From IMG/VR virus record IMGVR_UViG_2695420897_000008: 39,495 nt of DNA. The stretch is one strand, 5' to 3'. The stretch comes from a virus (Duplodnaviria > Heunggongvirae > Uroviricota > Caudoviricetes). This document shows, piece after piece, positions 10,640-39,284 of the stretch (position 1 is the first letter of the stretch; the number at the start of each line of letters is the position of its first letter). A model generated the notes under the pieces. It was not told the DNA's origin. It made no database searches and saw only the letters and a list, made by a program, of their open reading frames with translations. The translations under genes were made by a program, and so were the position numbers.

Positions 10640-11704
10640 CTATAATCCTCTCTGAAAAGCAGTGCTGGATGGCATATCCTGCGCACCGCGCGCTTCGCAC
10701 ATCATATCCATGTACCACGCCTGGCCCCTTGTATCGCCAGTGTACATAATCCCGCGCACAATATAAACGCCATCCGTTGCGATGCTGGCAGGCTGCGATG
10801 TGGTGCCGCTTAGCGTAATATTTCCGTCCGTGTTCTGGTCGGTGATCTGCCCACCAGCCATAGCGATATCGTTGTTCGACAACGCGGTGCGATATACGGA
10901 AGCCTGATCCAGTTGAATGAGCCCATTAACCCGGATGTTCGGATTAATAAGCGCGCGAACGTTTACGCCGTTGCCGATGGTCTGCTGCGGCATGCCAATA
11001 AGCCCGGTAGCGCTGTTGAGCACAATCGCTTCGTGAACATATTCATTATTCGCCACCATCTGGCGCTGACCGTCTACGAATTGCCATGTTGCGCCACATT
11101 GCCCGGCTACGTTATCCATTAGATGCCGCGTCATGCCAAAGAGCACCCGCCCCCGGGGGAATACAGTAGCAGGCATTTCAGGCGTCAGGCCTTCGGTCGC
11201 ACCTTTGGCTTCGAAGTCTTTCATCAGCGCACGGTTCACATCAGCGACCGTGTAACCGGCAGCCAGCGTCTGTGAGGTTATACTGGTGGCAAAAGCCAGA
11301 TCAGTATCTGCTGCCTGAATCAGGACGTAGGAATCAACCGGACTGTCTTTTCCTGTAACCGAGTAGCGAATTTCACCGCTGAAAATCAGTCCGTAGTTGC
11401 GGCCATCACTCTGGCCCACGTCCGCCGCATCAACCTCCCGCACGATCCCGACGTCGCTTGCCGACACCTCCGGCGCGATACCGTCGTAACCCGCAATCAG
11501 ACGCACTTTCGAAAACTCCCGCCCGGTGATTCGGTTCACAGTATCTGCCGAGAGGTTATAAATTTTGATAGTCCCTACCCGGGACGCGCTGCTGATGTTG
11601 AACCAGTCGATCGTAAAGGTCACTTTAAAATCACTTAGCTCAATTCCCTGACCGTTCCCGTCCACAAGCTGCAGCTCGAAATGTCTCATCCAGTTCTGTG
11701 ACAT
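10640..11704 (-). CDS. Tail/baseplate hub protein (P2 gpD / Mu gp44-like position)
   Basis: 354-aa ORF downstream of the tape measure and small tail genes in a conserved myovirus order. Confidence 0.45.
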   Translation of the reverse strand: MSQNWMRHFELQLVDGNGQGIELSDFKVTFTIDWFNISSASRVGTIKIYNLSADTVNRITGREFSKVRLIAGYDGIAPEVSASDVGIVREVDAADVGQSDGRNYGLIFSGEIRYSVTGKDSPVDSYVLIQAADTDLAFATSITSQTLAAGYTVADVNRALMKDFEAKGATEGLTPEMPATVFPRGRVLFGMTRHLMDNVAGQCGATWQFVDGQRQMVANNEYVHEAIVLNSATGLIGMPQQTIGNGVNVRALINPNIRVNGLIQLDQASVYRTALSNNDIAMAGGQITDQNTDGNITLSGTTSQPASIATDGVYIVRGIMYTGDTRGQAWYMDMMCEARGAQDMPSSTAFQRGL

Positions 11705-11706
11705 GC

Positions 11707-12009
11707 TTACTCCGTTGATACCAGTAAATGGCTGCGACCGCCCAGGTCAGTTTTTGTGGGGTAATCCTGTGTGTTGTCATCACAGACCACCACCAGCTTA
11801 AAACCAAGCCCCATACAGGCGTACTGCGCCAGCAGGTCAGCACCAGTGACGAGAGGAATACCGGAGATTACCGGCTCCCCTCTGTCGTTCTGCAGGTCCA
11901 TAATCCAGTACAGATCGCGCCATATGATGCTAATCCGCCAGGTAACACCACCCAGGACGATGCTGAACTGCTGGTTGTCCGCTGTCAGCGGAATTTCCTG
12001 AATTGCCAT
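11707..12009 (-). CDS. Small tail protein, 100 aa
   Basis: ORF in the tail module, tightly packed (ATGA-type overlap with the upstream gene). Confidence 0.45.
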   Translation of the reverse strand: MAIQEIPLTADNQQFSIVLGGVTWRISIIWRDLYWIMDLQNDRGEPVISGIPLVTGADLLAQYACMGLGFKLVVVCDDNTQDYPTKTDLGGRSHLLVSTE

Positions 12010-12596
12010 TAGCCGCCCCCCAGTAATGACGCCACGTTACCCGTGATGCTTTTCAGCAGTGAAGTATCTGGAGGCTTGGTGGTTTTGTTGCCGCTGTTCT
12101 GTACCGCCGACGTGCTGGCCCCTTCCTTCATGTTGGTTTTATCCGCGACGGAAATCTGCTGTGTCCGGGAGATAAGGACCTCCCTCAGGGTGAGGACGGC
12201 GGACAGGACGTTTTCGGTTGTCTTGTCCGTCGTCACTTCCAGCGCCCGGATCAACATGTTGCTGTACAGTCGTTTACCGGTTACCACATCGAAGGGGATA
12301 CGGCTTTCCTGCAGATCCAGTAGCTCCTGATACGTCTGCTGAGGACTCAGGCCGAGCAGGCTGGTAGCCGTCAGGTTACTGGCAAAATCCAGCAATGCGC
12401 CACCACCGGCGAAACCAACCTCCATCACCACTTCTGACGGTTTTTTATAGGCATGATCAGCGACAGCGGCCCCGACCTCTACCGGATGCTCTGTTATTTC
12501 AAGCATATCTGTATGCTTCTCTGAAATAACAACACAGGGAACAATCATTCCTATTTTTCTGCTCTGCTGATGAAAAAGTGTAGAGAGAATATCCAC
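12009..12596 (-). CDS. Tail protein, 195 aa
   Basis: ORF immediately downstream of the tape measure. Confidence 0.45.
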   Translation of the reverse strand: MDILSTLFHQQSRKIGMIVPCVVISEKHTDMLEITEHPVEVGAAVADHAYKKPSEVVMEVGFAGGGALLDFASNLTATSLLGLSPQQTYQELLDLQESRIPFDVVTGKRLYSNMLIRALEVTTDKTTENVLSAVLTLREVLISRTQQISVADKTNMKEGASTSAVQNSGNKTTKPPDTSLLKSITGNVASLLGGG

Positions 12597-14584
12597 TAAC
12601 CCACCCTCACCTGATTACTTCGCATGACCTGAGCATTTGCAGACTGTTGCCGACGTGCAACCTCATTACCGACAGCGTGCGGATCTCCACCACCGTAAAT
12701 GTGGTAGGTATTTTGCTGGTTAACCTCTGTCACTTTGCCACTAATTCCCGCCACGGCAGCCTTATTAATCAGCTCCCGAGAATAGATATTTCTTCCATTC
12801 TCATGCTGGATAATGCTGCTCATCAATGCTGACATGGTTTGCGGATCGCTCATATTCAGGGCAGCCCGGGGATCCACTCCCAGTCGTTGCGATACAGCCC
12901 TGATATACGCAGTTGTGTTGTTATTATCAGACGCAGGTGCCCAGGTAGAGATAATTTTCTCCACACTGTTTATTCCCCGTCCGGCGTACAGCATTAACTG
13001 ACGAGCAAGAGCCCGTAATCCATCAAAAGCAGTTTCAAATCTGGCAAATCGCCCGCCCGGGCGTTCAAGAGAAGCCCCTGCCTGACCAGCAAAATTAAGG
13101 TTTCCCGGATTGTTATTCCGTTCTCCTCGTTTCGTAGCCTGTGCATGTTGTTCCGGCTCATCATCACCAAACCAGCCGCGTACCGTCCGGCCCACACTGC
13201 GGGGATCGAATCCCCAGTGCTCTTTAATCCAGTCGGCAGTACTGTTAGCGCTGTCTGTAACCATCGGCATCGCTGACGGATTTTCGCTGCCCTGATTAAG
13301 TATCTGTTTGCCGATGCTGACGGCATCAGCCCAGCGGCCATCTTTGATAGCGTTGAGCAGGTCGGCGATCATGTTCAGCATTTTGCTGAATTCGCCCATC
13401 TGGTCGATGAAGTTGCTGAAATCCCACTTCAGGGACCATGATTTGGGGTCAATATTGAGCAGTTTCGCCAGCGCTTTCACCAGGTCGTTAACGGTCGTTT
13501 TAAGGTCACGAACCATCTTCAGCGCGGCATCGACCTCCGGTTTCCACTTGCCCCAGTCAATCAGGCTGTCGCCGCCTTCCTTCCAGGTCTGATAGTCCTC
13601 CCACAGGAGGGCAATACCCGCCGCCAGCGCGGTAATGAGGCCAATCGGCGACATCCAGAACGTACTGTTCAGAATGCGCAGCGCAATCGTCAGTGCGCCA
13701 AACAGCGAGATCAACTCCCGCGTTTGCTTATCCAGCGATTGCCACCAGGTGATAAGGCCTGATGTCCCCTCAATCAGTCTGAAGAACAGCCGCCCGATAA
13801 TATCCCCGAGCGCCAGAATGCCTTTTATGGCTTTCGTCAGGGTCTGCTCGATACGAGGGAAGTTGTCCAGGATATGGCGGCGCAGGGTGTCCAGCGAACC
13901 CGCAAGCCCCCCCGCAAGATTAGAGCCGATTTTGTCACGGGCCATGCCTGCCATCGCGCCAAACTCACGCAGGGAGGTCATAAATTTGTTGGAGCTTCTG
14001 GCCGCCTCGTCAGCATTGAAGCCGATAGCTTTCGCCATTGCGCTGTACTGCCCGGAGAAGCCACCCACACCCCGGCGCATCGCCATAAGGGTATTTTCGT
14101 CAATGCCCAGCATCTGCGCATACTGGTTAGCCCGGTAATACGGCATGCTGCTGAGTTTCTGTCCAACGCCCGTAAAAATAGCGGCCATGTCACGCATGTT
14201 ACCGCTGGCATCACGGGTCTGTACGCCCAGGCGATTCAGAAAGCCTTCTGCACCGGGATTGTTACGAATAAACCGGGATAGGCTTTCCAGAGAAGATCGC
14301 GCAGCGTCCACGCTGCCGCCAACCTGCGAAACCGCATAGCCAATAGACTGAATTCCCTGGACTGTCGCGCCGGTGCGCTGTGACGCCCAGTAAAGATTAT
14401 CCAGGCCGGAGGCGATCTTAGCCGTGAAGGCCACCACGGACAACGCAGCTCCTTCAACAGCCAGCCCCATTTTGATGACATTTGCAGTTGTACCGGCGAG
14501 GACAGAACCGAACTTTTTCGCTCCTGCATCATCCACACTGAAGCCAAGCGAGACGAGGAAATCTTTAATAGTTTCAGCGTTCAT
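12596..14584 (-). CDS. Tail tape measure protein; start placed at ATG 14584 (MNAETIKDF)
   Basis: Long Gly/Ala-rich protein between the tail chaperone and baseplate genes; GAGG RBS upstream of 14584. Confidence 0.75.
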   Translation of the reverse strand: MNAETIKDFLVSLGFSVDDAGAKKFGSVLAGTTANVIKMGLAVEGAALSVVAFTAKIASGLDNLYWASQRTGATVQGIQSIGYAVSQVGGSVDAARSSLESLSRFIRNNPGAEGFLNRLGVQTRDASGNMRDMAAIFTGVGQKLSSMPYYRANQYAQMLGIDENTLMAMRRGVGGFSGQYSAMAKAIGFNADEAARSSNKFMTSLREFGAMAGMARDKIGSNLAGGLAGSLDTLRRHILDNFPRIEQTLTKAIKGILALGDIIGRLFFRLIEGTSGLITWWQSLDKQTRELISLFGALTIALRILNSTFWMSPIGLITALAAGIALLWEDYQTWKEGGDSLIDWGKWKPEVDAALKMVRDLKTTVNDLVKALAKLLNIDPKSWSLKWDFSNFIDQMGEFSKMLNMIADLLNAIKDGRWADAVSIGKQILNQGSENPSAMPMVTDSANSTADWIKEHWGFDPRSVGRTVRGWFGDDEPEQHAQATKRGERNNNPGNLNFAGQAGASLERPGGRFARFETAFDGLRALARQLMLYAGRGINSVEKIISTWAPASDNNNTTAYIRAVSQRLGVDPRAALNMSDPQTMSALMSSIIQHENGRNIYSRELINKAAVAGISGKVTEVNQQNTYHIYGGGDPHAVGNEVARRQQSANAQVMRSNQVRVG

Positions 14585-15214
14585 TATCCTCTCTCCATTT
14601 CTCAATGCGTCGCTGGTTATCCGCTTTTACCGCCAGATGGTCATTCAAGAGAGCAATGTCATACAAATCGACAGAGCCATCTTTAAGTGCTGTATAAGGA
14701 ATTAACCCGGCGTCAACCGGATTGAGAAGGTAGGACAGCCCGTCCGGCAGGCTGTTAAACGTCAGCCCTGTTGCAGGCTCTGCGTCGTGCTGGTAAGGGG
14801 TGTAGGCAAAAAATTTCCCAGCGAATCGGCGACCACCCGCGCCACCAGCTGCAGCATGACCAGCAAGTCAATATCATCAAACATCAGTTCGCCCTGGGTA
14901 AATACCGGCACCCATCCGTCCATATGACGCCGCGATACCACCGCAAGACAGGGATGAATAATCGCATCGGTGTCATCTTCGGTCAGGGAAGACAGTTCCT
15001 CAGCGATACGCGGGAGCATGGTTTCAAACACCGGTTTTAACTGTTCGAATTTCACGGTGTCGATTTTGCCGTCAGCAGGCAAACGGGAGCGAATACTCCC
15101 GAAATCTGACATCATTCCTGCCAGCACCGGCAGAAGTTTGCGGGTCACTTTCAGCTGGTCAAAAACGCTGAGTTTTGCCGTGCGATATTTCACGCCTTTA
15201 ATTTCGAATTCCAT
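14574..15214 (-). CDS. Tail assembly chaperone, predicted -1 frameshift fusion product (G-T type)
   Basis: Slippery heptamer T_TTT_TTG (minus strand, 14813-14807) in the correct zero frame 16 codons before the chaperone stop; the -1 frame is then open for a further 75 codons to a TGA at 14574. Confidence 0.6.
14762..15214 (-). CDS. Tail assembly chaperone, zero-frame product (150 aa)
   Basis: ORF between the tail tube and tape measure genes, the conserved chaperone position. Confidence 0.65.
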   Translation of the reverse strand: MEFEIKGVKYRTAKLSVFDQLKVTRKLLPVLAGMMSDFGSIRSRLPADGKIDTVKFEQLKPVFETMLPRIAEELSSLTEDDTDAIIHPCLAVVSRRHMDGWVPVFTQGELMFDDIDLLVMLQLVARVVADSLGNFLPTPLTSTTQSLQQG

Positions 15215-15217
15215 GCA

Positions 15218-15658
15218 TTAAAACTCCCCGAGAACCTGGTCAATCTTGCCGCAGTCAAACACCCACGGCATCGTATTACCGGTTTTAGCGTTGGCGTTAT
15301 CCGGTTGTTTCTGGAACGCAACACTGCGTGCCGTGATGATGTCGCCGCTGACCTTGTTGCGGATCACGATAACGTTATTCCCCCATGTGGCAGAAGACTG
15401 GCTCTGTGCGTTATACGCCAGCGACAATTTTTTATTTGTCGGTGATGTCTTCAGAAGGTTAACGGTAATCGTCCCGCTTTTATCTGCATGGAGACTGTGC
15501 ATCACTTCGCCATCAGCACCGATGGTCATGGTGTTTTTAGGACCGCCCATCGCAACCACAATCCCCTCTTCAGAACTTGCCGAACCGTACCCGAGGTCAA
15601 TCGAACCTGTCGGCCCGGTCAGCGTCGCAGTGACATCCATAAAAGAATAGGTAGACAT
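15218..15658 (-). CDS. Tail tube protein
   Basis: 146-aa ORF directly downstream of the sheath gene. Confidence 0.65.
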   Translation of the reverse strand: MSTYSFMDVTATLTGPTGSIDLGYGSASSEEGIVVAMGGPKNTMTIGADGEVMHSLHADKSGTITVNLLKTSPTNKKLSLAYNAQSQSSATWGNNVIVIRNKVSGDIITARSVAFQKQPDNANAKTGNTMPWVFDCGKIDQVLGEF

Positions 15659-15668
15659 TCACTTCCCC

Positions 15669-16814
15669 TTAGCGAACAACGTTAATCTGTACGTCAGCGT
15701 AATGAACCGCGCCTGCAAGTTTTATTGCAGCCTGAATCACCGGAGCCTTACGGGCTTCACGTTCTGATTGAGCCTGTTCATCCAGCGGCTGAGCGTATAC
15801 GTAATAACCTTTGGGCAGTGTGTCACCTGATGACAACTGACCAAGGTCGCCCCCGTTCCATACGCCCGGAGCAATCAGTCCATTCTGAACGGCCTGATCC
15901 AGTGATTTTTCAACATTTGATAACAGTCGGGTAATACCGGCTTCAGTCTGGGGAACTTTCGTGGTGCTGGTATAAAGCAGGTTATAGAGGTTGGTCTGCA
16001 CATAATTCTGTAACCAGTCCAGGCCGTGGCGTTCATCAAAGAAATCGCCGTTAGCCATCACTCCCTGCTGGAGGATAGCCGTATCATTCTGGTAGTACAC
16101 GAATACATTGCAGTTTTTTGCATCAAGTGCCGATGCCTGGCTGACTGTCAGTGTTTCATACCCGATACCCGGCTCCTGCTTAAACTTGAGCGTAATCGCG
16201 GTATTACTGCCATTGAAATTAACCGTGAATGCCCGGCCAAATGCAGATAACGCAGCGTATTTATTACCCGATGAATACTGAATAAAACTGCGTGAATATC
16301 CGGCGGTTTTCAGTTTTGATGCCAAATCATCGCTGGATGCAGTCTGCAGGCATTTCTCATCGCTTGTCGTAATCGCCAGAATACGGCTTACAGAAGAGGA
16401 TTCGATCGCCGCAGCCACTTTCAGCCAGTCTGCATCCTGAATATCTTCATCGTCTGCAATCCCCAGCCCATACCATGAAGTATAATCAAGCATGGCATTC
16501 ACAGCCTGCTCCAGCGTCTCAGGCGTGGCCTGTTCGCTGTCTCCCTTCGTTTTCACCCAACGACCAACAAAAACCTCCTGAGGTTTCGGTGATTGAGAGA
16601 AAAACACCTGCGCAGCCTTATATTCTGGTGATTCCACGCCAAAATCTTTTCCAATATCTTCCGCGGCAGAATAACGGCGAATGCGCTCACTTACCGGAAT
16701 GATTGTGGACGGGCCGAGAATGAGTAATGCACCAAAATTTCGCCCTGATGCTGCACGCGGCGACATGATCACATCAACATTAACAACGTTTGATACAGGC
16801 AAGCCCTGTGCCAT
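15669..16814 (-). CDS. Contractile tail sheath protein
   Basis: 381-aa ORF upstream of tube and chaperone in conserved sheath-tube-chaperone-tape measure order. Confidence 0.7.
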
Positions 16815-31372: not shown

Positions 31373-31447
31373 TGCTTTCACCTCATACAATTTTAGTGGT
31401 ATTTAGCAACAACAAATGAGGTTTGTCAAATACAACAAAAATTGTTT

Positions 31448-31469
31448 TTAATGTGGGTATACACATTAA
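31448..31469. promoter_or_regulatory. Candidate operator: perfect 8-6-8 palindrome TTAATGTG-GGTATA-CACATTAA between cro and cI
   Basis: Inverted repeat 24 bp upstream of the cI start, inside the divergent cro/cI intergenic region. Confidence 0.45.
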
Positions 31470-31492
31470 TACAACCCAGAAGGACTAATCCC

Positions 31493-32116
31493 ATGTCTCT
31501 CGCAGCCCGTTTTAAAGCACGTCGTTTGGAATTAGGAATGACTCAAGTGGAAGTAGCGAATTCTGCAGGGGTTAGCCAACAATCCATAGAATCCATCGAA
31601 AGTGGACGAACCAGAAAGCCACGCAATCTTCTGGATCTGGCTAAGGCCTTGAAATGTAGCCCAGACTGGCTACTGAACGGTAAAAATATTATGCCTCTCG
31701 CGGAGATAAGTACCAGACGCATACCTATATTAAGTTACGTTCAGGCAGGAGAGCTTACAGAAGCAAGAGACATAACAGATCTGACAGGGGAATTTGAATA
31801 TATTTTGGCAGACTCTGACATTCCAGAAACATGCTTCGCATTACGTATTGATGGCGACAGCATGCAACCAGAGTTTAAAGAAGGAGACATTGTTATCATC
31901 GATCCTGATCTATGTCCTGCACCAGGGGAGTTTGTTGTCGCCAAAAACGACGGTCACGAAGCTACATTTAAAAAATACCGTCCATTAGGAATCGGCATCG
32001 ACGACTTTGAATTAATCCCCCTAAATCCTGATTACCCTATTTTTCGTAGTGCAGATATGAACTTACAGATCATAGGTGTAATGATCGAACACCGTATTTA
32101 CCGCCGTAAACGTTAG
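31493..32116 (+). CDS. CI-like repressor, LexA-type (N-terminal HTH plus C-terminal S24 peptidase domain); start at ATG 31493
   Basis: HTH QVEVANSAGVSQQSIESIESG; S24 motifs LRIDGDSMQPEF and ATFKKY; AAGGA RBS before 31493. Confidence 0.8.
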   Translation: MSLAARFKARRLELGMTQVEVANSAGVSQQSIESIESGRTRKPRNLLDLAKALKCSPDWLLNGKNIMPLAEISTRRIPILSYVQAGELTEARDITDLTGEFEYILADSDIPETCFALRIDGDSMQPEFKEGDIVIIDPDLCPAPGEFVVAKNDGHEATFKKYRPLGIGIDDFELIPLNPDYPIFRSADMNLQIIGVMIEHRIYRRKR

Positions 32117-33800: not shown

Positions 33801-35102
33801 ATGCCAGACGTTCATGCACAACTTTCTCCATCATCAGCGCATCGATGGATGCGCTGCCCAGGAAGTCTGGCGCTGGAGGCCACACAACCGGATAAAGAAA
33901 CAACTTTTGCAATCGAGGGCACTGCAGCGCACGCGCTTGCTGAAAAAGTTCTACGAAACAGGCAAAGCCACCCGGAACACTACGCCGGATGCAATGTTTC
34001 TATGTTTCTCGGCTCATACCCCCTTCGCGAAAATCCTGATGATACATCTGGCCCACAGGTGGATGATGAAATGGTCGAAGCCGTTGGCCGGTATGTTGAT
34101 ACGGTCTGGACTCTTGCACAGAATAATGAACTATTGGTTGAACAACGTGTTGATTTCTCACATATAACGGGGGTGGAAGAATCTTTCGGAACTGCCGACG
34201 GCATAATCATCGCTGGTAACGAATTACAAATCCACGACCTGAAATATGGCAAAGGCGTCCGCATTGATGCAGAACAAAATGAGCAACTACAACTGTATGC
34301 TCTGGGTGCGCTCGAACAATTCAGCATGCTGTATGACTTTGAGACTGTAAGATTATTTATTCACCAGCCAAGGCTCAACCACGTTTCAGAATGGTCGTTA
34401 ACCGTACAGGAACTTCAGTCTTTCGGTGAACGGGCACAGGAGGCCGCAACCAGTGCGATCCTTGTTCTCAATATTGCTGAATGCGAAGGCATTGAGACAC
34501 TACCGCTGGAAAACTTCATACCTGGAGAAAAACAGTGCCGCTTCTGTAAAGCAAAAGCTATTTGCACTGCCCAGAAAATGCAGCATTTACAAACAGCGGC
34601 CAGCGATTTTGAAGATCTGACAAAGCCTGTCAGCGAAATAATCACCAATGCCAGCGCACGTGTACCTCTGTTAACCATTGAGCAGCTTGCGGAGATCTAT
34701 AGCCAGGCCGACTTTATTGAATCCTGGCTAAAGGCAGTACGGGACCGGGTTCACAATGAACTCAATGCCGGACATCCGGTACCGGGGTTTAAACTGGTAA
34801 CAGGAAAACAAGGTAACCGGGCCTGGAGTGATGAAGAGGCAGCTCGCGCACTTCTGAAGGACCAGTTCAGGTACAAAACTGAAGAAGTATTCGACTTTAA
34901 ACTTATTAGTCCCACAAAAGCCGAAAAACTTATCAAAAAGGCCAGTCCACGCCGTTGGTCAAAAGTCGAGGCACTGATAACACGAGCTGATGGTAAACCA
35001 ACCGTCATTCCCGAGTCAGACCCACGCCCCGCACTCAATATCAACCCTGTAAATGATTTCGACGACGTATCCGACGATACGCTAACCGCAGACCTCATCT
35101 GA
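33801..35102 (+). CDS. PD-(D/E)XK-type nuclease with C-terminal Cys cluster (DUF2800/Cas4-like)
   Basis: 433-aa ORF; putative active-site residues (D...[12 protein letters not shown]) and C-terminal [10 protein letters not shown]; typical neighbour of phage DNA polymerase genes. Confidence 0.5.
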
Positions 35103-35117
35103 TTTAAGGAAATACCC

Positions 35118-35666
35118 ATGAAACTGAAGCTGAACAATGTTCGTCTGGCCTTCCCGTCTCTGTTTGAAGCTAAAACTGTAAACGGCGAAGGCGATCCGCG
35201 TTTCTCCGCAGTATTTTTAATGTCTCCCAAACACCCACAACTGGAAGAAATCCGTAAAGCTATGAAGCAGGTAGCGAAGGAAAAATGGGGAGAGAAGTGG
35301 GAGCCCATTTATAACCAGCTGGAGAAAAAACTCAATCTGTGCCTGCATGATGGTGATGAAAAAGCAGAGTATGAAGGCTTCCCCGGTAATTTCTTCCTGA
35401 ATGCTGCTAACAAAGCGCGCCCAGCTGTTCTTGATCGCGATCGTTCGCCACTTATTCAGGCTGACGGACGTCCCTATGCAGGGTGCTATGTAAACGCCGT
35501 TATCGATATCTGGGCACAGGACAATAATTTCGGTAAACGCATTAATGCCTCACTCGGCGGAGTCCAGTTCCTGCGAGACGGCGATGCATTCGCTGGCGGC
35601 GGAGTGGCAAGCGCTGACGATTTCGACGATATCAGCGAAGGTGCTGATGCTGAAGCACTAATTTAA
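35118..35666 (+). CDS. DUF2815-like phage protein (putative ssDNA-binding)
   Basis: 182-aa ORF with acidic C-terminal tail (DDFDDISEGADAEALI) between the nuclease and polymerase genes. Confidence 0.45.
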   Translation: MKLKLNNVRLAFPSLFEAKTVNGEGDPRFSAVFLMSPKHPQLEEIRKAMKQVAKEKWGEKWEPIYNQLEKKLNLCLHDGDEKAEYEGFPGNFFLNAANKARPAVLDRDRSPLIQADGRPYAGCYVNAVIDIWAQDNNFGKRINASLGGVQFLRDGDAFAGGGVASADDFDDISEGADAEALI

Positions 35667-35718
35667 CCCTACTTCATAGACGCCCGGTTAAACACCGGGC
35701 TACTGATTAGGCGTATAA

Positions 35719-36348
35719 TCACTCAGGAATCTTAATCTTTCTCAATTCTTTATTTAGTTCACAGATCTTTTTCTTAGACGGGAAAGTATCATACATCCAA
35801 AAACCAACAGTCTCTAAAACTATTATCATAACCATATACACAAGATAATTTAAAAGGCCTTCATTTTGCCCTATGGAAATAATGCAGATAATAGAAAAAA
35901 GGGTAAACAGCACAAAACACAGAAAGGAAAACAGACGACTAATAATAAATAAAAAACCTGAAAAATCAACATTAATAAAAAACACTCCGTTATCTTTCTC
36001 TATATAATTCTGAAGCTTAATCAACTGATTTATATACTGTCTTTTTTCTAATCTATTGCAAATGTAAATAACATCTCTTCGGTTATAAGATGATTGCAAT
36101 TTCAGCGCATCACGAATAATTTTATCATTTATTCTTTTTTCTATGGCACTCTTATCCTCCTCATCCAGATAACGTTCATACTTAACTAAATATAAAATTA
36201 ACTTCTTAACATATTTAGGCTCTTTATACTTATAATTAAAAATGATCTTTCTTATCCAGACTCCCATAACAATCAAACATGAAAAAATATATCCAGCTAT
36301 TTTCTCCAGATGCTCTGTATGGTCAATCAAGTATTGGATCATATGCAT
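35719..36348 (-). CDS. Hypothetical integral membrane protein, 209 aa, very AT-rich, opposite strand to the surrounding operon
   Basis: Three predicted TM segments; strong compositional contrast with flanking genes. Confidence 0.55.
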   Translation of the reverse strand: MHMIQYLIDHTEHLEKIAGYIFSCLIVMGVWIRKIIFNYKYKEPKYVKKLILYLVKYERYLDEEDKSAIEKRINDKIIRDALKLQSSYNRRDVIYICNRLEKRQYINQLIKLQNYIEKDNGVFFINVDFSGFLFIISRLFSFLCFVLFTLFSIICIISIGQNEGLLNYLVYMVMIIVLETVGFWMYDTFPSKKKICELNKELRKIKIPE

Positions 36349-36394
36349 AATTAATCTTTTAATCAGTTAATAGAATAAAAACCAAGGTAAACAC

Positions 36395-38458
36395 ATGTCC
36401 AATATACTATGGGGCGACCTGGAAACCTATTGCGAAATCCCTATTACGAACGGTACCCATGCGTATGCCGAAGGCGTTGAAGTGATGCTTTTCGCATGGG
36501 CTATCAACGACGGGCCAGTAAACGTGTGGGATATCACTGCCGGTGGTGGTATTCCACACGGCTTATACGAAGCAATCGCAGACCCTGAAACCCTGCTTTA
36601 TTTCCATAACTCTCACTTCGACCGCACCGTTCTGCGTTATGCAATGCCGCGCCTGGCACCGCCAGTCGAACGTTGGCGCGACACAATGGTGCAGGCGCTG
36701 GCGCACGGTCTCCCGGGGTCTCTGGGGGAACTCTGCGAAGTACTAGGCGTCCCGCAAGACAAAGCGAAGGACAAAGAAGGTAAAGCGCTGATCCAGCTGT
36801 TCTGTAAGCCACGCCCGAAAAACAGCAAACTGCGCCGGGCCACCAGCAAAACCCACCCGGAAGAATGGCGGCGCTTTGTTGCTTACGCCGGACTGGATAT
36901 CGAGGCAATGCGCGAAGTCTATAAACGTCTGCCGAAGTGGAATTATCAGGGGACAGAACTGGCGCTCTGGCATCGTGATCAGCAGATCAATGACCGGGGC
37001 GTCTGCATGGACGTGGAACTCGCACGCGCTGCGATCGACGCGGTAGACCAGGAACAAAAGCGCCTGGCAAAGCGTACACAGGAAATGACTGATGGCGAAG
37101 TGCAGGCAGCCACACAACGAGACGCGTTGATTAAGCACATTGTTGAATCCTACGGTGTGGAGCTACCAGACATGCAACGCAGTACTCTGGAACGTCGTAT
37201 TGCCGACCCCGATTTACCATCTGCCGTGAAAGAACTGCTGGCTATCCGCCTGCAGGCCAGTACTACCAGCACCAGTAAATACAAGGCACTGATGAAAGGC
37301 GTAAGCCACGACGGGCGCTTACGCGGTACGCTACAGTTCTGCGGGGCGTCACGTACCGGTCGTTGGGCCGGACGGCTATTCCAGCCCCAGAACCTTCCCC
37401 GCCCTTCACTAAAACAGGAACAAATAGACGAAGGCATCGAAGCACTGAAAGCCGGATGTGCAGACCTGCTGTTTGACAATATCATGGAACTAACCAGTTC
37501 AGCGTTACGTGGCTGCATTATCGCGCCAACAGGCAAAAAGCTGGTGGTAAGTGACTTGTCGAACATTGAAGGCCGTATGCTGGCATGGCTGGCGGGAGAA
37601 GAATGGAAACTGAATGCATTCAGAGAGTACGACGCCGGAACGGGTCCGGACTTATATAAACTGGCGTATGCAAAAGCTTTCGATATTGCACCAGATGATG
37701 TTGATAAACACATGCGTCAGATCGGTAAAGTCATGGAACTCGGTCTGGGTTATGGTGGTGGTGTGTCGGCCTTCATCACTTTTGCACTGGTTTACGGTCT
37801 CGATCTCGACGAGCTGGCGAACGCCGCACTACCAAACATTCCCCGCGATGTTATCCGCGAGGCGAAAAGCTGGTACGACGAATCGGTTAAACGCAAGTCA
37901 ACCTACGGGCTTTCTGAACGGGTATTTATCGCCTGCGACTCACTTAAACGTCTCTGGCGCCGGGCGCATCCCGCGACCTGTGATTTCTGGTACGAACTGG
38001 AGCGCACCGTCCGCACTGCAATCGCCACACCGCAAAAAACATTGTATTGCGGTTATCTTAAAATCCGCCGCGATGGCGCGTGGCTGCGCATACAGCTACC
38101 ATCCGGACGCGCTGTATGCTACCCGTCTCCGGTTATCGAAAAAGGGAATATCACCTACATGGGGGTTAACTCTTATTCGCGTAAATGGCAACGACTCAAA
38201 ACCTACGGCGGAAAGCTGGTGGAGAACATCACCCAGGCGGCCGCCCGCGACATTCTGGCCGGAAACATGCCGCTTATCGAAGATGCCGGTTACAGCATTG
38301 TGCTGACGGTACACGACGAGGTGATCACCGAAGCACCTGACACAGAAGATTTCAACGATAAAGCGCTTTCCGCGCTTCTCTCCACTGACCCCGAATGGGC
38401 GCCCGATATCCCACTGAACGCTGGCGGTTTTGAGGCGTACCACTACAAAAAAGATTGA
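36395..38458 (+). CDS. Family A DNA polymerase with N-terminal 3'-5' exonuclease domain, no 5'-3' exonuclease domain
   Basis: 687 aa; Exo I motif WGDLETYCE, polymerase motifs [24 protein letters not shown] and TVHDEV. Confidence 0.8.
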
Positions 38459-38522: not shown

Positions 38523-39284
38523 ATGCAGGAACTAACTGAAATGCCGATCACCTATCCATACCCGAGAGAAACTTTTCCTGACTTTTTGAGGGAGTGTGGG
38601 TTCACCAATTTTTCCCACGAACAGCGTGAGACTTGTGACTGCTATCGTTTAACGAATGGCGTAATTGTTAACCTTTACACCACCCGGACCATTCAGTTTC
38701 AAGGTAACCCTCAAGAACGTCCCAATGTTGAAACTGCAATAATGACCCATTTAGGAACGCCGCCCACGGCAACACCACTAGCCGTAGAACAGCCATCTGA
38801 GCTCCCCAAAAAGATATTCATTGTTCACGGCCATGACCATACTGCAAAGGAGCAACTTGAGCTAATCCTTCATAAACTTGGATTACCAGACCATTTCATT
38901 TTGCAGAATACGGGAGGGACTGGACTCACCATTATTGAAGAGCTTGAACGTGAAATTGGGCAAGGACAAACTGCTACCCGTTTCGGGATTGTTCTTTTGA
39001 CACCTGATGATATGGGATACTCAAAGCGCGCCGGTGAAGCAGAAATCCAACCCCGCGCAAGACAGAACGTTGTACTCGAGATGGGTATGCTTCTTTCGTC
39101 CTTAGGGCGCAGCAATGTAGCAATCCTTCAGAAACAGCACCTAGAACAGCCTTCTGATGCTAACGGGATTTTGTATCTGAATTTCAACGACCATGTACGT
39201 GAAACAGTTCCTCGTCTAGTGCAACGGTTACAAAATTCTGGTTTCGAATTTACACAAGCTCAAATAGCTAACGCTTCCTCGTAA
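38523..39284 (+). CDS. Protein with C-terminal TIR-like nucleotide-binding domain (COG4271/PF10137-like) and an N-terminal domain of unknown function
   Basis: Motifs KIFIVHGHD, VLLTPDD and RARQNVVLEMG match the TIR-like family as remembered; AAAGGA RBS; followed by a terminator. Confidence 0.55.
   Translation: MQELTEMPITYPYPRETFPDFLRECGFTNFSHEQRETCDCYRLTNGVIVNLYTTRTIQFQGNPQERPNVETAIMTHLGTPPTATPLAVEQPSELPKKIFIVHGHDHTAKEQLELILHKLGLPDHFILQNTGGTGLTIIEELEREIGQGQTATRFGIVLLTPDDMGYSKRAGEAEIQPRARQNVVLEMGMLLSSLGRSNVAILQKQHLEQPSDANGILYLNFNDHVRETVPRLVQRLQNSGFEFTQAQIANASS

What the first reader, a model, noticed from the sequence alone, without database searches (positions are those of the whole stretch)
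35667..36394. Opposite-strand AT-rich membrane protein gene inserted between replication genes
A 209-aa, 3-TM protein gene with very low GC sits antisense between the DUF2815-like and polymerase genes, with its own flanking non-coding DNA and a GC hairpin (35691-35709). This looks like independently acquired cargo; membrane proteins at such sites are often exclusion or abortive-infection factors.
Basis: inference. Interest (0 to 1): 0.55.

Follow-up and report, generated by a model that had tools for sequence, protein, structure and literature searches.

The report
Swappable prophage membrane-protein gene, function untested
A small, AT-rich gene for an inner-membrane protein sits as a swappable cassette between two replication genes of a common E. 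coli prophage; its relatives occur alone in cargo or defence slots of other mobile elements, so it is probably a protective accessory gene, though nobody has tested what it does.

Summary
A 209-aa ORF (35719-36348, minus strand, 28.9% GC against 49.8% for the window) with three predicted membrane helices lies antisense between the DUF2815/Enc34 ssDNA-binding gene and the family-A DNA polymerase gene. The GC hairpin is real but lies at 35682-35700, not 35691-35709.

The cargo reading is strongly supported. Among 159 complete E. coli genomes with this prophage backbone, homology breaks at the DUF2815 stop codon, or just after the hairpin, and resumes at the polA start codon. Only 67 genomes carry this gene. 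Others carry a SIR2 protein (PADLOC candidate PDC-S25), a BRO-N protein, Nmad5 cassettes, or a 199-aa protein that is a distant homologue (hhalign 96%).

The protein belongs to a small, unnamed Enterobacterales family (PHROG 10579; 36 hits among 1.84 billion cluster representatives). Members stand without a conserved partner gene in this slot, the P2-like gpS|gpV slot, the P4 psu-int antiviral hotspot, lambdoid prophages, a plasmid and an ICE.

The function is inferred. Topology, gene placement and a juxtamembrane C-terminal motif resemble P22 SieA, but homology is not supported (hhalign 1.4-3%). No known fold or defence family matches. The best guess is a lysogen-expressed inner-membrane exclusion or defence factor, with moderate confidence.

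The parts
35118..35666 (+). Left backbone gene: DUF2815 / Enc34-type (Gp2.5-like) ssDNA-binding protein, 182 aa. Homology with related prophages ends at its stop codon.
   Evidence: Pfam PF10991 E 7.6e-44; phrog_112; blastn breakpoints at 35666 in L004, L005 and L007.
35667..36394 (.). Variable cassette slot (728 bp here, 29.9% GC). It is replaced by other cassettes of 652-1669 bp in related prophages.
   Evidence: backbone identity about 97-100% (77% for the polA 5' end of the SIR2 variant) up to 35666 or 35700 and from 36394/36395 (36401 and 36416 in two variants).
35682..35700 (.). GC-rich hairpin (7-bp stem, 5-nt loop) between the two convergent stop codons. No T-run on either strand. Shared with the BRO-N and SIR2 variants, so it is backbone.
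   Evidence: Sequence; fold -17 and -20.4 kcal/mol, z -2.6 and -3.1; shared in L003 and L006. The terminator scan does not call it.
35719..36348 (-). The 209-aa gene: predicted inner-membrane protein. Layout is N-out, TM1, a roughly 95-aa cytoplasmic helical domain with a small beta-hairpin, a TM2-TM3 hairpin, then a cytoplasmic amphipathic C-tail carrying the family's only near-invariant residues, P190 and N199.
   Evidence: phrog_10579 E 2.9e-108; intact in 11 loci and 6 alleles.
36349..36394 (.). 46-bp divergent spacer holding the ribosome-binding regions of both genes: AAGG upstream of polA on the plus strand, and a weak AAAGA upstream of the cargo ATG on the minus strand.
   Evidence: Read from the sequence. 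The same spacer is only about 26-30 bp upstream of the homologous cassettes.
36372..36401 (-). Only sigma-70-like promoter candidate upstream of the cargo gene (TGGACA-18-TATTCT). Its -35 hexamer overlaps the first polA codons. Unproven.
   Evidence: 9 of 12 matches; site counts not above shuffles; own PWM scan, 9.6 bits.
36395..38458 (+). Right backbone gene: family-A DNA polymerase with 3'-5' exonuclease region, 687 aa. Backbone homology resumes at its start codon.
   Evidence: Pfam DNA_pol_A, phrog_17; breakpoints.

Best explanation
The 209-aa gene is an accessory cargo cassette (a 'moron') of a temperate E. coli myovirus-type prophage integrated beside yfhL. It encodes an inner-membrane protein of a small, unnamed family restricted to mobile elements of Enterobacterales.

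Shown:
- It occupies a hypervariable slot bounded by the DUF2815 stop codon and the polA start codon.
- It points against the early replication operon.
- Relatives occur without a conserved partner gene in cargo or defence slots of unrelated prophages, a P4-like satellite, a plasmid and an ICE.

Inferred:
- In the lysogen the early operon is repressed, and the gene is transcribed from a promoter at or overlapping the polA 5' end. The protein then inserts in the inner membrane with its loop domain and C-tail in the cytoplasm.
- There it protects the lysogen against incoming phages. The most likely mode resembles P22 SieA, which blocks genome delivery across the cytoplasmic membrane. A less likely mode is a membrane-disrupting abortive-infection protein.
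- During lytic growth, read-through of the early operon into polA runs antisense across the gene and should dampen its expression.
For: Cargo status:
- 67 of 159 backbone-positive complete E. coli genomes carry the gene, always single copy and chromosomal.
- Breakpoints fall at the flanking stop and start codons.
- GC is 28.9% against 49.8% for the window.

Alternative occupants of the slot:
- SIR2 protein, PADLOC PDC-S25, E 3.9e-157.
- BRO-N, Nmad5 plus a 90-aa membrane protein, and Nmad5 plus a 229-aa protein.
- A 199-aa protein with the same orientation and layout that is a distant homologue (hhalign 96%, E 4.6e-9, 148 columns).

Family:
- 36 hits at E<=1e-3 among 1.84e9 representatives, nearly all 190-260 aa and colinear in the 32-sequence alignment.
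- phrog_10579 links four further members independently.

Contexts, with no partner gene shared between them:
- Same slot in Klebsiella and Citrobacter prophages, and for a third subfamily only 16% identical to the window protein, in a viral contig whose PolA is 74% identical to the window's.
- P2-like gpS|gpV slot in Rahnella.
- P4-like psu-cII interval, which lies in the psu-int hotspot shown to be a reservoir of anti-phage systems (PMC9122126).
- Lambdoid early-left region, opposite strand.
- Prophage end after umuDC-like genes, a plasmid and an ICE.

SieA-like features:
- Same predicted topology as P22 SieA.
- SieA's only conserved motif, FxRYPxEAxxFNK, sits at the same cytoplasmic juxtamembrane position as this family's (F/Y)PxxKxIxx(I/L)NxxLxK.
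- sieA is also an opposite-strand gene beside a lytic operon, and also comes in about 25%-identical types in one slot.

Other points:
- No conserved catalytic-type residues.
- No plus-strand promoter-like site between DUF2815 and polA.
- The gene is intact in all 11 loci sampled; pN/pS is about 0.24 for the most divergent pair.
Against: - No significant sequence similarity to SieA type A or B (hhalign 2.4%, 1.4%, 3.0%) or to SieB.
- No hit in Pfam, in PADLOC, or above noise in NCBIfam.
- The promoter is only a weak consensus match, not above shuffles.
- From general knowledge, DNA this AT-rich is often silenced by H-NS in E. coli, so expression in the lysogen is unproven.
- SieA-type exclusion is usually specific to one phage family. 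This family's spread over plasmids and ICEs fits a broader or a non-phage role equally well.
- BRO-N and Nmad5 cassettes in the same slot are not known defence genes, so the slot is a cargo slot, not strictly a defence slot.
- No paper mentions the protein.
Confidence: 0.4

Rival explanations
1. Single-protein abortive-infection or toxic membrane effector. The cytoplasmic loop domain senses an infection cue, and the TM2-TM3 hairpin with the amphipathic C-helix then permeabilises or depolarises the inner membrane. The cell dies before the invader completes its cycle.
For: - Membrane proteins in known defence systems are generally regarded as suicide effectors (PMC9122126).
- One relative lies next to a PDC-M36A-like gene in a P4 hotspot.
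- The window holds another low-GC membrane ORF with a weak PycTM/2TM-effector match.
- The loop domain is well folded in the model (4 helices plus a beta-hairpin, pLDDT about 90).
Against: - Effectors normally come with a sensor or signal-generating partner. This family has no conserved partner gene across about eight different contexts.
- No match to PADLOC effector models.
- No conserved polar or catalytic residues beyond R90, P190 and N199.
Confidence: 0.17
2. Accessory membrane protein unrelated to phage defence. Examples would be an orphan immunity protein against a pore-forming bacteriocin, an envelope or stress fitness factor, or a conjugative entry-exclusion protein, carried by mobile elements because it benefits the host.
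For: - The family occurs on a plasmid and beside TraG_N in an ICE as well as in prophages.
- The slot also holds non-defence cargo such as BRO-N and Nmad5.
- From general knowledge, pore-forming colicin immunity proteins are small multi-pass inner-membrane proteins encoded on the opposite strand.
Against: - No Pfam hit to colicin or microcin immunity, TraS/Eex or any other family.
- No bacteriocin gene is nearby in any context seen.
- Most contexts are phage or satellite slots, including a validated antiviral hotspot.
Confidence: 0.17
3. A phage lytic-cycle function, such as membrane anchoring of the replication complex or a modulator of the neighbouring polymerase or ssDNA-binding protein. 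This would explain its place inside the replication module.
For: - Three divergent subfamilies recur in the DUF2815|polA slot across genera.
- The start codons of the gene and of polA are only 26-46 bp apart.
Against: - The gene is absent from 92 of 159 otherwise near-identical prophages, where unrelated cargo replaces it.
- Relatives sit among tail genes, in a satellite, on a plasmid and in an ICE, with no polymerase nearby.
- It is oriented against the operon.
- No similarity to any replication protein.
Confidence: 0.05
4. A selfish or decaying hitch-hiker: an AT-rich ORF that persists by linkage, is silenced and has no current function.
For: - The subfamily is confined to a few closely related enterobacteria and is at least 97% identical wherever found in E. 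coli.
- pN/pS between close alleles is not far below 1 for some pairs, though counts are tiny.
- The promoter is unproven.
Against: - Architecture, length (about 200-220 aa for most members) and motifs are conserved at 15-45% identity across at least ten genera.
- The 13 near-full-length members of the sister family are all exactly 199 aa at 48-98% identity.
- All 11 sampled copies are intact.
- The confident AlphaFold model shows co-evolutionary signal.
Confidence: 0.06

Closest known systems
P22 SieA superinfection-exclusion protein (Leavitt et al., mBio 2024, PMC10883804)
   Same: - Small inner-membrane protein with the same predicted topology: short N-terminus outside, TM1, cytoplasmic helical loop, TM2-TM3 hairpin, cytoplasmic C-tail.
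- The only well-conserved motif lies just after the last TM on the cytoplasmic side and looks similar: SieA ...FGRYPGEANGFNKEFIK, here ...DTFPSKKKICELNKELRK.
- The gene lies on the opposite strand next to a lytic operon. In P22 it has its own annotated promoter.
- It exists as several types only about 25% identical, all in one slot.
- It acts as a single gene.

   Different: - No statistically supported homology (hhalign 1.4-3%).
- The cytoplasmic loop is about 95 aa here against about 50 aa in SieA.
- The motif spacing differs by two residues.
- SieA is confined to P22-like prophages between genes 16 and 9. This family sits in a myovirus replication module and in many other element types.
- SieA's function is shown by experiment. 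This protein's is not.
Prophage and satellite hotspots of antiviral systems (P2 and P4; Rousset et al. 2022, PMC9122126)
   Same: - A fixed slot between conserved genes, where closely related elements carry different, compositionally deviant cassettes, including SIR2 and TIR proteins and membrane proteins.
- One family member lies inside the P4 psu-int hotspot itself.
   Different: - The DUF2815|polA slot lies inside an early replication operon of a different prophage type. I found no description of it in the literature searched.
- It also holds cargo not known as defence (BRO-N, Nmad5).
- No cassette from this slot has been tested.
Opposite-strand morons in lytic operons: P2 orf30, lambda bor, HK97 gp15
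   Same: P2 orf30 is a non-essential, opposite-strand, multi-pass membrane-protein gene between gpS and gpV. That is the slot where a 38%-identical relative of this protein sits in Rahnella P2-like prophages. The expression logic is the same: own signals, antisense to lytic transcription. Lambda bor and HK97 gp15 are cited from general knowledge only.
   Different: P2 Orf30 is not homologous (hhalign 0.8%). The Rahnella relative is co-directional with the tail genes.
ExbB/TolQ/MotA-type stator proteins
   Same: Same membrane topology: N-out, TM1, large cytoplasmic domain, TM2-TM3, cytoplasmic tail. ExbB appears among the top Foldseek rows.
   Different: The match is not significant (E = 2, TM-score 0.21). 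There is no Pfam MotA_ExbB hit and no ExbD/TolR-like partner gene.

Membership tests
Phage accessory cargo cassette ('moron') | Present or absent among otherwise near-identical phage genomes, with sharp boundaries | tested here: met
   67 of 159 backbone-positive E. coli genomes carry it. Homology breaks at 35666 or 35700 and resumes at 36394/36395.
Phage accessory cargo cassette ('moron') | Nucleotide composition deviates from the surrounding genome | tested here: met
   28.9% GC against 49.8%; the lowest-GC 630-bp stretch of the window lies inside the gene. Relatives are about 34-35% GC in loci of 43-50%.
Phage accessory cargo cassette ('moron') | Own promoter and terminator, allowing expression from the repressed prophage | tested here: inconclusive
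   There is one weak sigma-70-like site overlapping the polA start, and site counts are not above shuffles. The hairpin is stable but lacks a T-run and belongs to the backbone. No expression data are available.
PHROG 10579 (phage protein family of unknown function) | Significant match to the family profile | tested here: met
   E 2.9e-108, residues 28-209 against profile 1-182. Relatives P0025, P0026, P0021 and P0034 also match.
P22 SieA superinfection-exclusion family | Sequence homology to SieA types A or B | tested here: not met
   hhalign of the 32-sequence family profile against P22 SieA 2.4%, against E. coli HS type B 1.4%, against a small A+B alignment 3.0%. Type C was not available.
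P22 SieA superinfection-exclusion family | Inner-membrane protein with three TM helices and a cytoplasmic C-tail | tested here: met
   Prediction only: hydropathy and positive-inside rule and AlphaFold helices. The SieA topology is from PMC10883804.
P22 SieA superinfection-exclusion family | Conserved cytoplasmic motif FxRYPxEAxxFNK after the last TM | tested here: inconclusive
   The family has (F/Y)PxxKxIxx(I/L)NxxLxK at the same place, with P190 at 91% and N199 at 94%. hhalign aligns the two motifs, but with a 2-residue gap and no significance.
P22 SieA superinfection-exclusion family | Located between the gene 16 and gene 9 homologues of a P22-like prophage | tested here: not met
   Here the gene lies between DUF2815 and polA of a prophage with myovirus-type (sheath/tube/baseplate) tail genes.
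P22 SieA superinfection-exclusion family | Blocks DNA delivery by superinfecting phage | not testable with these tools
   Needs phage challenge and a DNA-entry assay, for example potassium efflux.
Known or candidate anti-phage defence systems (PADLOC-DB v2.0.0) | Match to any system component model | tested here: not met
   No family at E<=1 for this protein. None at E<=0.01 for the 199-aa and 201-aa relatives.
SieB, RexB, Imm, colicin-immunity and MotA_ExbB families (Pfam) | Match to the Pfam model, or profile homology | tested here: not met
   No Pfam family at E<=0.1. hhalign against P22 SieB 0.16%. ExbB by Foldseek E = 2, TM-score 0.21.
Replication accessory protein of the DUF2800-DUF2815-PolA module | Conserved presence with the module, or homology to a replication protein | tested here: not met
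   Absent from 92 of 159 modules. Present in elements without the module. No such homology found.

The most novel reading that the evidence does not exclude
The protein founds a previously unrecognised, fast-diverging family of single-gene inner-membrane exclusion proteins of Enterobacterales mobile elements. The family would be very distantly related, or convergent, to P22 SieA, sharing its topology and the juxtamembrane (F/Y)P...N-K-E motif. The DUF2815|polA junction of this common E. coli prophage would then be a new antiviral hotspot lying inside a replication operon, where homologous 'alleles' only 16-22% identical and unrelated systems (SIR2/PDC-S25) replace one another.
Probability: 0.25. 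Interest if true: 0.6.

Novelty: new member of a known kind. Interest (0 to 1): 0.45.

Why it matters
If the inference holds, this is an easily testable one-gene phage-exclusion candidate. It is present in about 1% of complete E. coli genomes, including IAI1, ETEC H10407, O55:H7 and O103:H2 strains. It would mark a new cassette hotspot in a widespread prophage type and add a family to the short list of inner-membrane exclusion proteins, of which P22 SieA is the best-studied example. The slot also offers a ready list of untested candidates (SIR2/PDC-S25, Nmad5 cassettes, small membrane proteins). It could be mined in the way the P2 and P4 hotspots were. If the gene has no phage phenotype, it is simply one more uncharacterised AT-rich prophage cargo gene.

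Tried and rejected
- **Family libraries.** Pfam and PADLOC gave nothing, and NCBIfam gave only far-below-cutoff noise (RbsU, Rex).
- **Word-indexed protein search.** It found only the protein's own cluster and fragments. A profile version returned only 6 proteins.
- **tblastn.** Against phage genomes it found only three near-identical induced E. coli phages. Against plasmids it found nothing.
- **A winged-helix reading of the loop domain** (three helices plus a beta-hairpin). I considered it, but no search supported it.
- **P2 Orf30 as a homologue.** Rejected: hhalign 0.8%.
- **SieA and SieB homology.** Not supported. Only close SieA relatives could be collected for the profile, one type-B row was a frameshifted copy, and type C was not obtained.
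- **Rfam.** No RNA family in 35000-37000.
- **The hairpin as an intrinsic terminator.** Not called by the scan, and there is no T-run.
- **A conserved backbone promoter** (TATATT antisense to polA codons 3-4, present in all eight loci). The score is weak (5.3 bits), and its conservation is explained by the coding sequence of polA.
- **The search for related loci with the whole family alignment.** It failed for lack of conserved stretches.
- **Literature searches.** Searches on the accession, the phage name, DUF2815/DUF2800 prophages and the PDC names found nothing relevant.
Full report
**1. What is there**

The window is an E. coli prophage with some flanking chromosome. The part around the finding is 100% identical to strain FDAARGOS_1059 and 99.2% identical to the induced phages vB_EcoM-606R2, 689R2 and 611R5. 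In FDAARGOS_1059 the integrase end abuts yfhL.

The early rightward operon runs in this order:
- LexA/CI-type repressor (31442-32116)
- a 300-aa protein
- DUF2800 PD-(D/E)XK nuclease (33801-35102)
- DUF2815/Enc34-type ssDNA-binding protein (35118-35666)
- family-A DNA polymerase (36395-38458)
- a TIR-domain protein (38523-39284)

Between DUF2815 and polA, on the opposite strand, lies an ATG-initiated ORF of 209 aa at 35719-36348. Its GC content is 28.9% against 49.8% for the window, and the lowest-GC 630-bp stretch of the window lies inside it.

Hydropathy gives three membrane segments at about 17-33, 130-158 and 166-186. The charge distribution places the acidic N-terminus outside. The 95-aa loop (21 K+R) and the 23-aa C-tail (7 K+R) are placed in the cytoplasm.

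The PHROG profile starts at residue 28. However, the N-terminal segment is conserved in relatives that are 38-43% identical (invariant Y6, H10, E12, L14, K16). The 209-aa start is therefore the likely one, as PGAP also annotates it.

It is more stable than shuffled sequence (z -2.6 and -3.1). It has no T-run on either side and is not called as a terminator.

**2. It is a cassette in a hypervariable slot**

The flanks occur in 159 of 5,426 complete E. coli genomes. The gene occurs in only 67 of them, always as a single chromosomal copy at 98% identity or more.

In prophages whose flanks are about 97-100% identical (except the polA 5' end of the SIR2 variant, 77%), homology stops at the DUF2815 stop codon (35666) or just after the hairpin (35700). 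It resumes at the polA start codon (36394/36395), or a few codons inside polA in two variants.

The same slot holds other cargo in other strains:

| Cargo | Size | Strand relative to operon | Evidence |
|---|---|---|---|
| SIR2 protein matching PADLOC candidate PDC-S25 (E 3.9e-157) | 493 aa | same | |
| BRO-N protein | 300 aa | same | |
| Nmad5 gene plus a membrane ORF | 90 aa (ORF) | opposite (ORF) | |
| Nmad5 gene plus another ORF | 229 aa (ORF) | opposite (ORF) | |
| Three-TM protein | 199 aa | opposite | |

Cassette GC ranges from 30% to 50%. Each variant begins with one of three different GC-rich hairpins just after the DUF2815 stop. The hairpin in this window is shared with the BRO-N and SIR2 variants, so it is backbone and not cargo.

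**3. The protein family**

The word-indexed search found only the protein's own cluster (456 member sequences, all named hypothetical).

The 199-aa protein from the same slot looks alike. A profile of 14 of its relatives from Enterobacter, Klebsiella, Citrobacter and Pluralibacter (13 of them exactly 199 aa, at 48-98% identity) matches the window protein. The hhalign probability is 96% and E is 4.6e-9 over 148 columns.

A joint profile searched with HMMER against 1.84 billion cluster representatives found only 36 proteins at E<=1e-3. Most are 190-260 aa. The 32 sequences I aligned are colinear and show the same layout.

Conservation falls almost entirely on hydrophobic positions. The exceptions are R90 (78%), an acidic position at 65, P190 (91%) and N199 (94%). 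The last two lie in the motif (F/Y)PxxKxIxx(I/L)NxxLxK(I/V) directly after TM3. Nothing in this pattern suggests an enzyme.

PHROG 10579 (unknown function) independently links four further members, in addition to the window protein itself. Named members come from Escherichia, Citrobacter, Klebsiella, Enterobacter, Pluralibacter, Rahnella, Rouxiella, Serratia, Pantoea and Xenorhabdus.

With the 32-sequence alignment, AlphaFold gives a confident model (pLDDT 87.8, pTM 0.65). Its elements are:
- a long N-terminal helix
- a four-helix cytoplasmic domain ending in a small beta-hairpin
- two long TM helices
- a C-terminal amphipathic helix

No search of solved or viral structures gives a significant match.

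**4. Where relatives live**

No partner gene is shared between the contexts seen, and in most of them the gene points against its neighbours.

- **Same slot.** A Klebsiella aerogenes prophage and a degraded Citrobacter prophage carry the 199-aa type in the DUF2815|polA slot. A third subfamily, only 16% identical to the window protein, occupies the same slot in a metagenomic contig and in a viral contig whose PolA is 74% and DUF2815 59% identical to the window's.
- **P2-like prophages.** A 38%-identical relative lies between gpS and gpV in P2-like prophages of Rahnella and in IMG/VR contigs. In P2 itself that slot holds the non-essential, opposite-strand membrane gene orf30. Orf30 is not homologous.
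- **P4-like satellite.** A 201-aa member lies between psu and cII of a Citrobacter P4-like satellite, next to a PDC-M36A-like gene. This is inside the psu-int hotspot that Rousset et al. showed to be a reservoir of anti-phage systems (PMC9122126).
- **Other elements.** Other members lie opposite-strand in a lambdoid early-left region and at a prophage end after umuDC-like genes beside smpB. Others lie next to ParAB/Rep3 on a Pantoea plasmid, beside TraG_N in a conjugative element, and in a mobile-element remnant in Xenorhabdus.

This distribution excludes a role tied to the replication module. It fits an autonomous accessory function.

**5. Expression logic (inferred)**

In every instance of this slot, the start codon of a family member and the polA start codon are only about 26-46 bp apart. 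No plus-strand promoter-like site lies between DUF2815 and polA.

polA is therefore most likely transcribed by read-through from the early operon. That read-through passes the T-less hairpin and runs antisense across the cargo gene.

The cargo promoter must sit at or inside the polA 5' end. The only candidate here is TGGACA-18-TATTCT at 36401-36372. It is weak and unproven.

This arrangement would allow expression when the early operon is repressed and dampen it during lytic growth. Known opposite-strand morons behave this way. P22 sieA, for example, has its own annotated promoter next to gene 16. H-NS silencing of such AT-rich DNA is a real possibility (general knowledge), and I could not address it.

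**6. What it most likely does**

The closest functional analogue I found is P22 SieA. It is an inner-membrane protein with three predicted TM helices, and it is necessary and sufficient to block DNA delivery by P22-like phages. It comes in three types about 25% identical in one slot. Its best-conserved motif, FxRYPxEAxxFNK, lies on the cytoplasmic side after the last TM (PMC10883804).

The window family shares several of these features:
- the topology
- the position and general look of the motif (DTFPSKKKICELNKELRK against FGRYPGEANGFNKEFIK)
- the opposite-strand placement
- the pattern of very divergent 'alleles' in one slot

hhalign does align the two motifs, but without significance:
- 2.4% against P22 SieA
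- 1.4% against the E. coli HS type B protein
- 3.0% against a small A+B alignment

Membership of the SieA family is therefore not established. 'Works like SieA' is my best-supported hypothesis, at about 0.4 for exclusion or defence at the membrane, with a SieA-like entry block favoured within that.

The rivals are:
- a one-protein abortive-infection effector
- a non-phage accessory role, such as bacteriocin immunity, entry exclusion or envelope fitness
- a lytic-cycle role
- a functionless hitch-hiker

All 11 sampled copies are intact, and pN/pS is about 0.24 for the most divergent pair, on very few substitutions. The family-wide conservation of length and layout argues against the hitch-hiker rival.

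**7. Verdict**

The 'exclusion or abortive-infection' reading is plausible but untested. The gene belongs to an unnamed, mobile-element-borne membrane-protein family.

I rate it a new member of a known kind: a prophage moron and candidate exclusion factor in a cassette hotspot. It is of moderate interest. It is cheap to test and points to a hotspot I found no description of, but it would not surprise a specialist.

Noticed in passing
window 38523-39284 (+): The gene just after polA encodes a 253-aa TIR-domain protein (Pfam CAP12-PCTIR_TIR, E 2.9e-31) that matches PADLOC candidate PDC-S35 at E 6.8e-109. It is absent from at least one related prophage (L007, where an ANR-family regulator gene follows polA directly), so this looks like a second variable cargo slot.
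   Followed up: partly
L001 24414-25211; L006 11668-12431; L007 10778-12123 (just beyond the window's right end): A third variable slot lies between the VRR-NUC nuclease and the SNF2/DEAD helicase. It holds a 265-aa opposite-strand hypothetical protein in the window-type prophage, DUF6338 plus a small ORF in another, and a DNA cytosine methyltransferase plus a small opposite-strand ORF in a third.
   Followed up: no
window 9728-10282 (-): A 184-aa ORF lies in a low-GC patch (34.5%) among the baseplate genes. It matches phrog_18554 (unknown function) and weakly matches PADLOC PycTM (E 2.6e-4) and a 2TM effector model. It may be another membrane-protein moron.
   Followed up: partly
window 1211-1858 (-): A 215-aa ORF at 33% GC lies between the tail-fibre invertase and host yfhH, at the prophage end. 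It has no Pfam, PADLOC or PHROG match and is annotated hypothetical (WP_001288820.1).
   Followed up: partly
window 113-6178: Window 113-5235 (gp53-like tail-fibre end, invertase, the 215-aa ORF, and host yfhH, pgpC, tadA and mltF) is colinear with FDAARGOS_1059 in one orientation. Window 6159-16500 (tail genes) is colinear in the opposite orientation. A 147-bp direct repeat (368-514 and 6032-6178, 99.3% identical) flanks the segment, and the mltF ORF lacks its 5' end. This suggests a roughly 9-kb inversion from the tail-fibre crossover site into mltF, or an assembly artefact in the source.
   Followed up: partly
window 35667-35700; L004 850-900; L005/L007 just after DUF2815: Every cargo variant starts with a GC-rich hairpin just after the DUF2815 stop, but there are three unrelated hairpin sequences (GCCCGG.., ATCAGGTC.., CCCCAGC..). 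A structure at this position seems to be selected whatever the cargo.
   Followed up: no
window 36395-36440 (antisense), and L004, L005, L007, L020, L021, L023, L025: A TATATT hexamer antisense to polA codons 3-4 is present in all eight loci that have an opposite-strand gene next to polA. It could be a backbone-embedded -10 element for whatever cargo is inserted, but it is equally explained by the conserved N-I-L-W-G-D-L-E coding sequence of polA.
   Followed up: partly
L022 4260-6606: In a Citrobacter P4-like satellite, the psu-cII hotspot holds a 479-aa DUF8370 protein matching PADLOC candidate PDC-M36A (E 1.8e-47), directly upstream of and co-directional with the 201-aa family member. This is the only context seen where the family might have a partner gene.
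   Followed up: no
L014/L015 7001-7648: The Xenorhabdus hominickii family member lies in a mobile-element remnant (Tn3 resolvase, HicA, Tad2-like, tail-fibre assembly and PA-IL lectin genes) a few genes from tadA, mltF and purL. That is the same chromosomal neighbourhood where the E. coli prophage is integrated.
   Followed up: no
L099 5172-6235, 11210-14519, 15343-15896; L001 4930-6149: The 100%-matching prophage in FDAARGOS_1059 carries several frameshifted genes (DUF2213, a baseplate-region gene, the invertase) and an IS66 insertion in a tail-fibre assembly gene. That copy is probably defective, while the cargo gene is intact.
   Followed up: no
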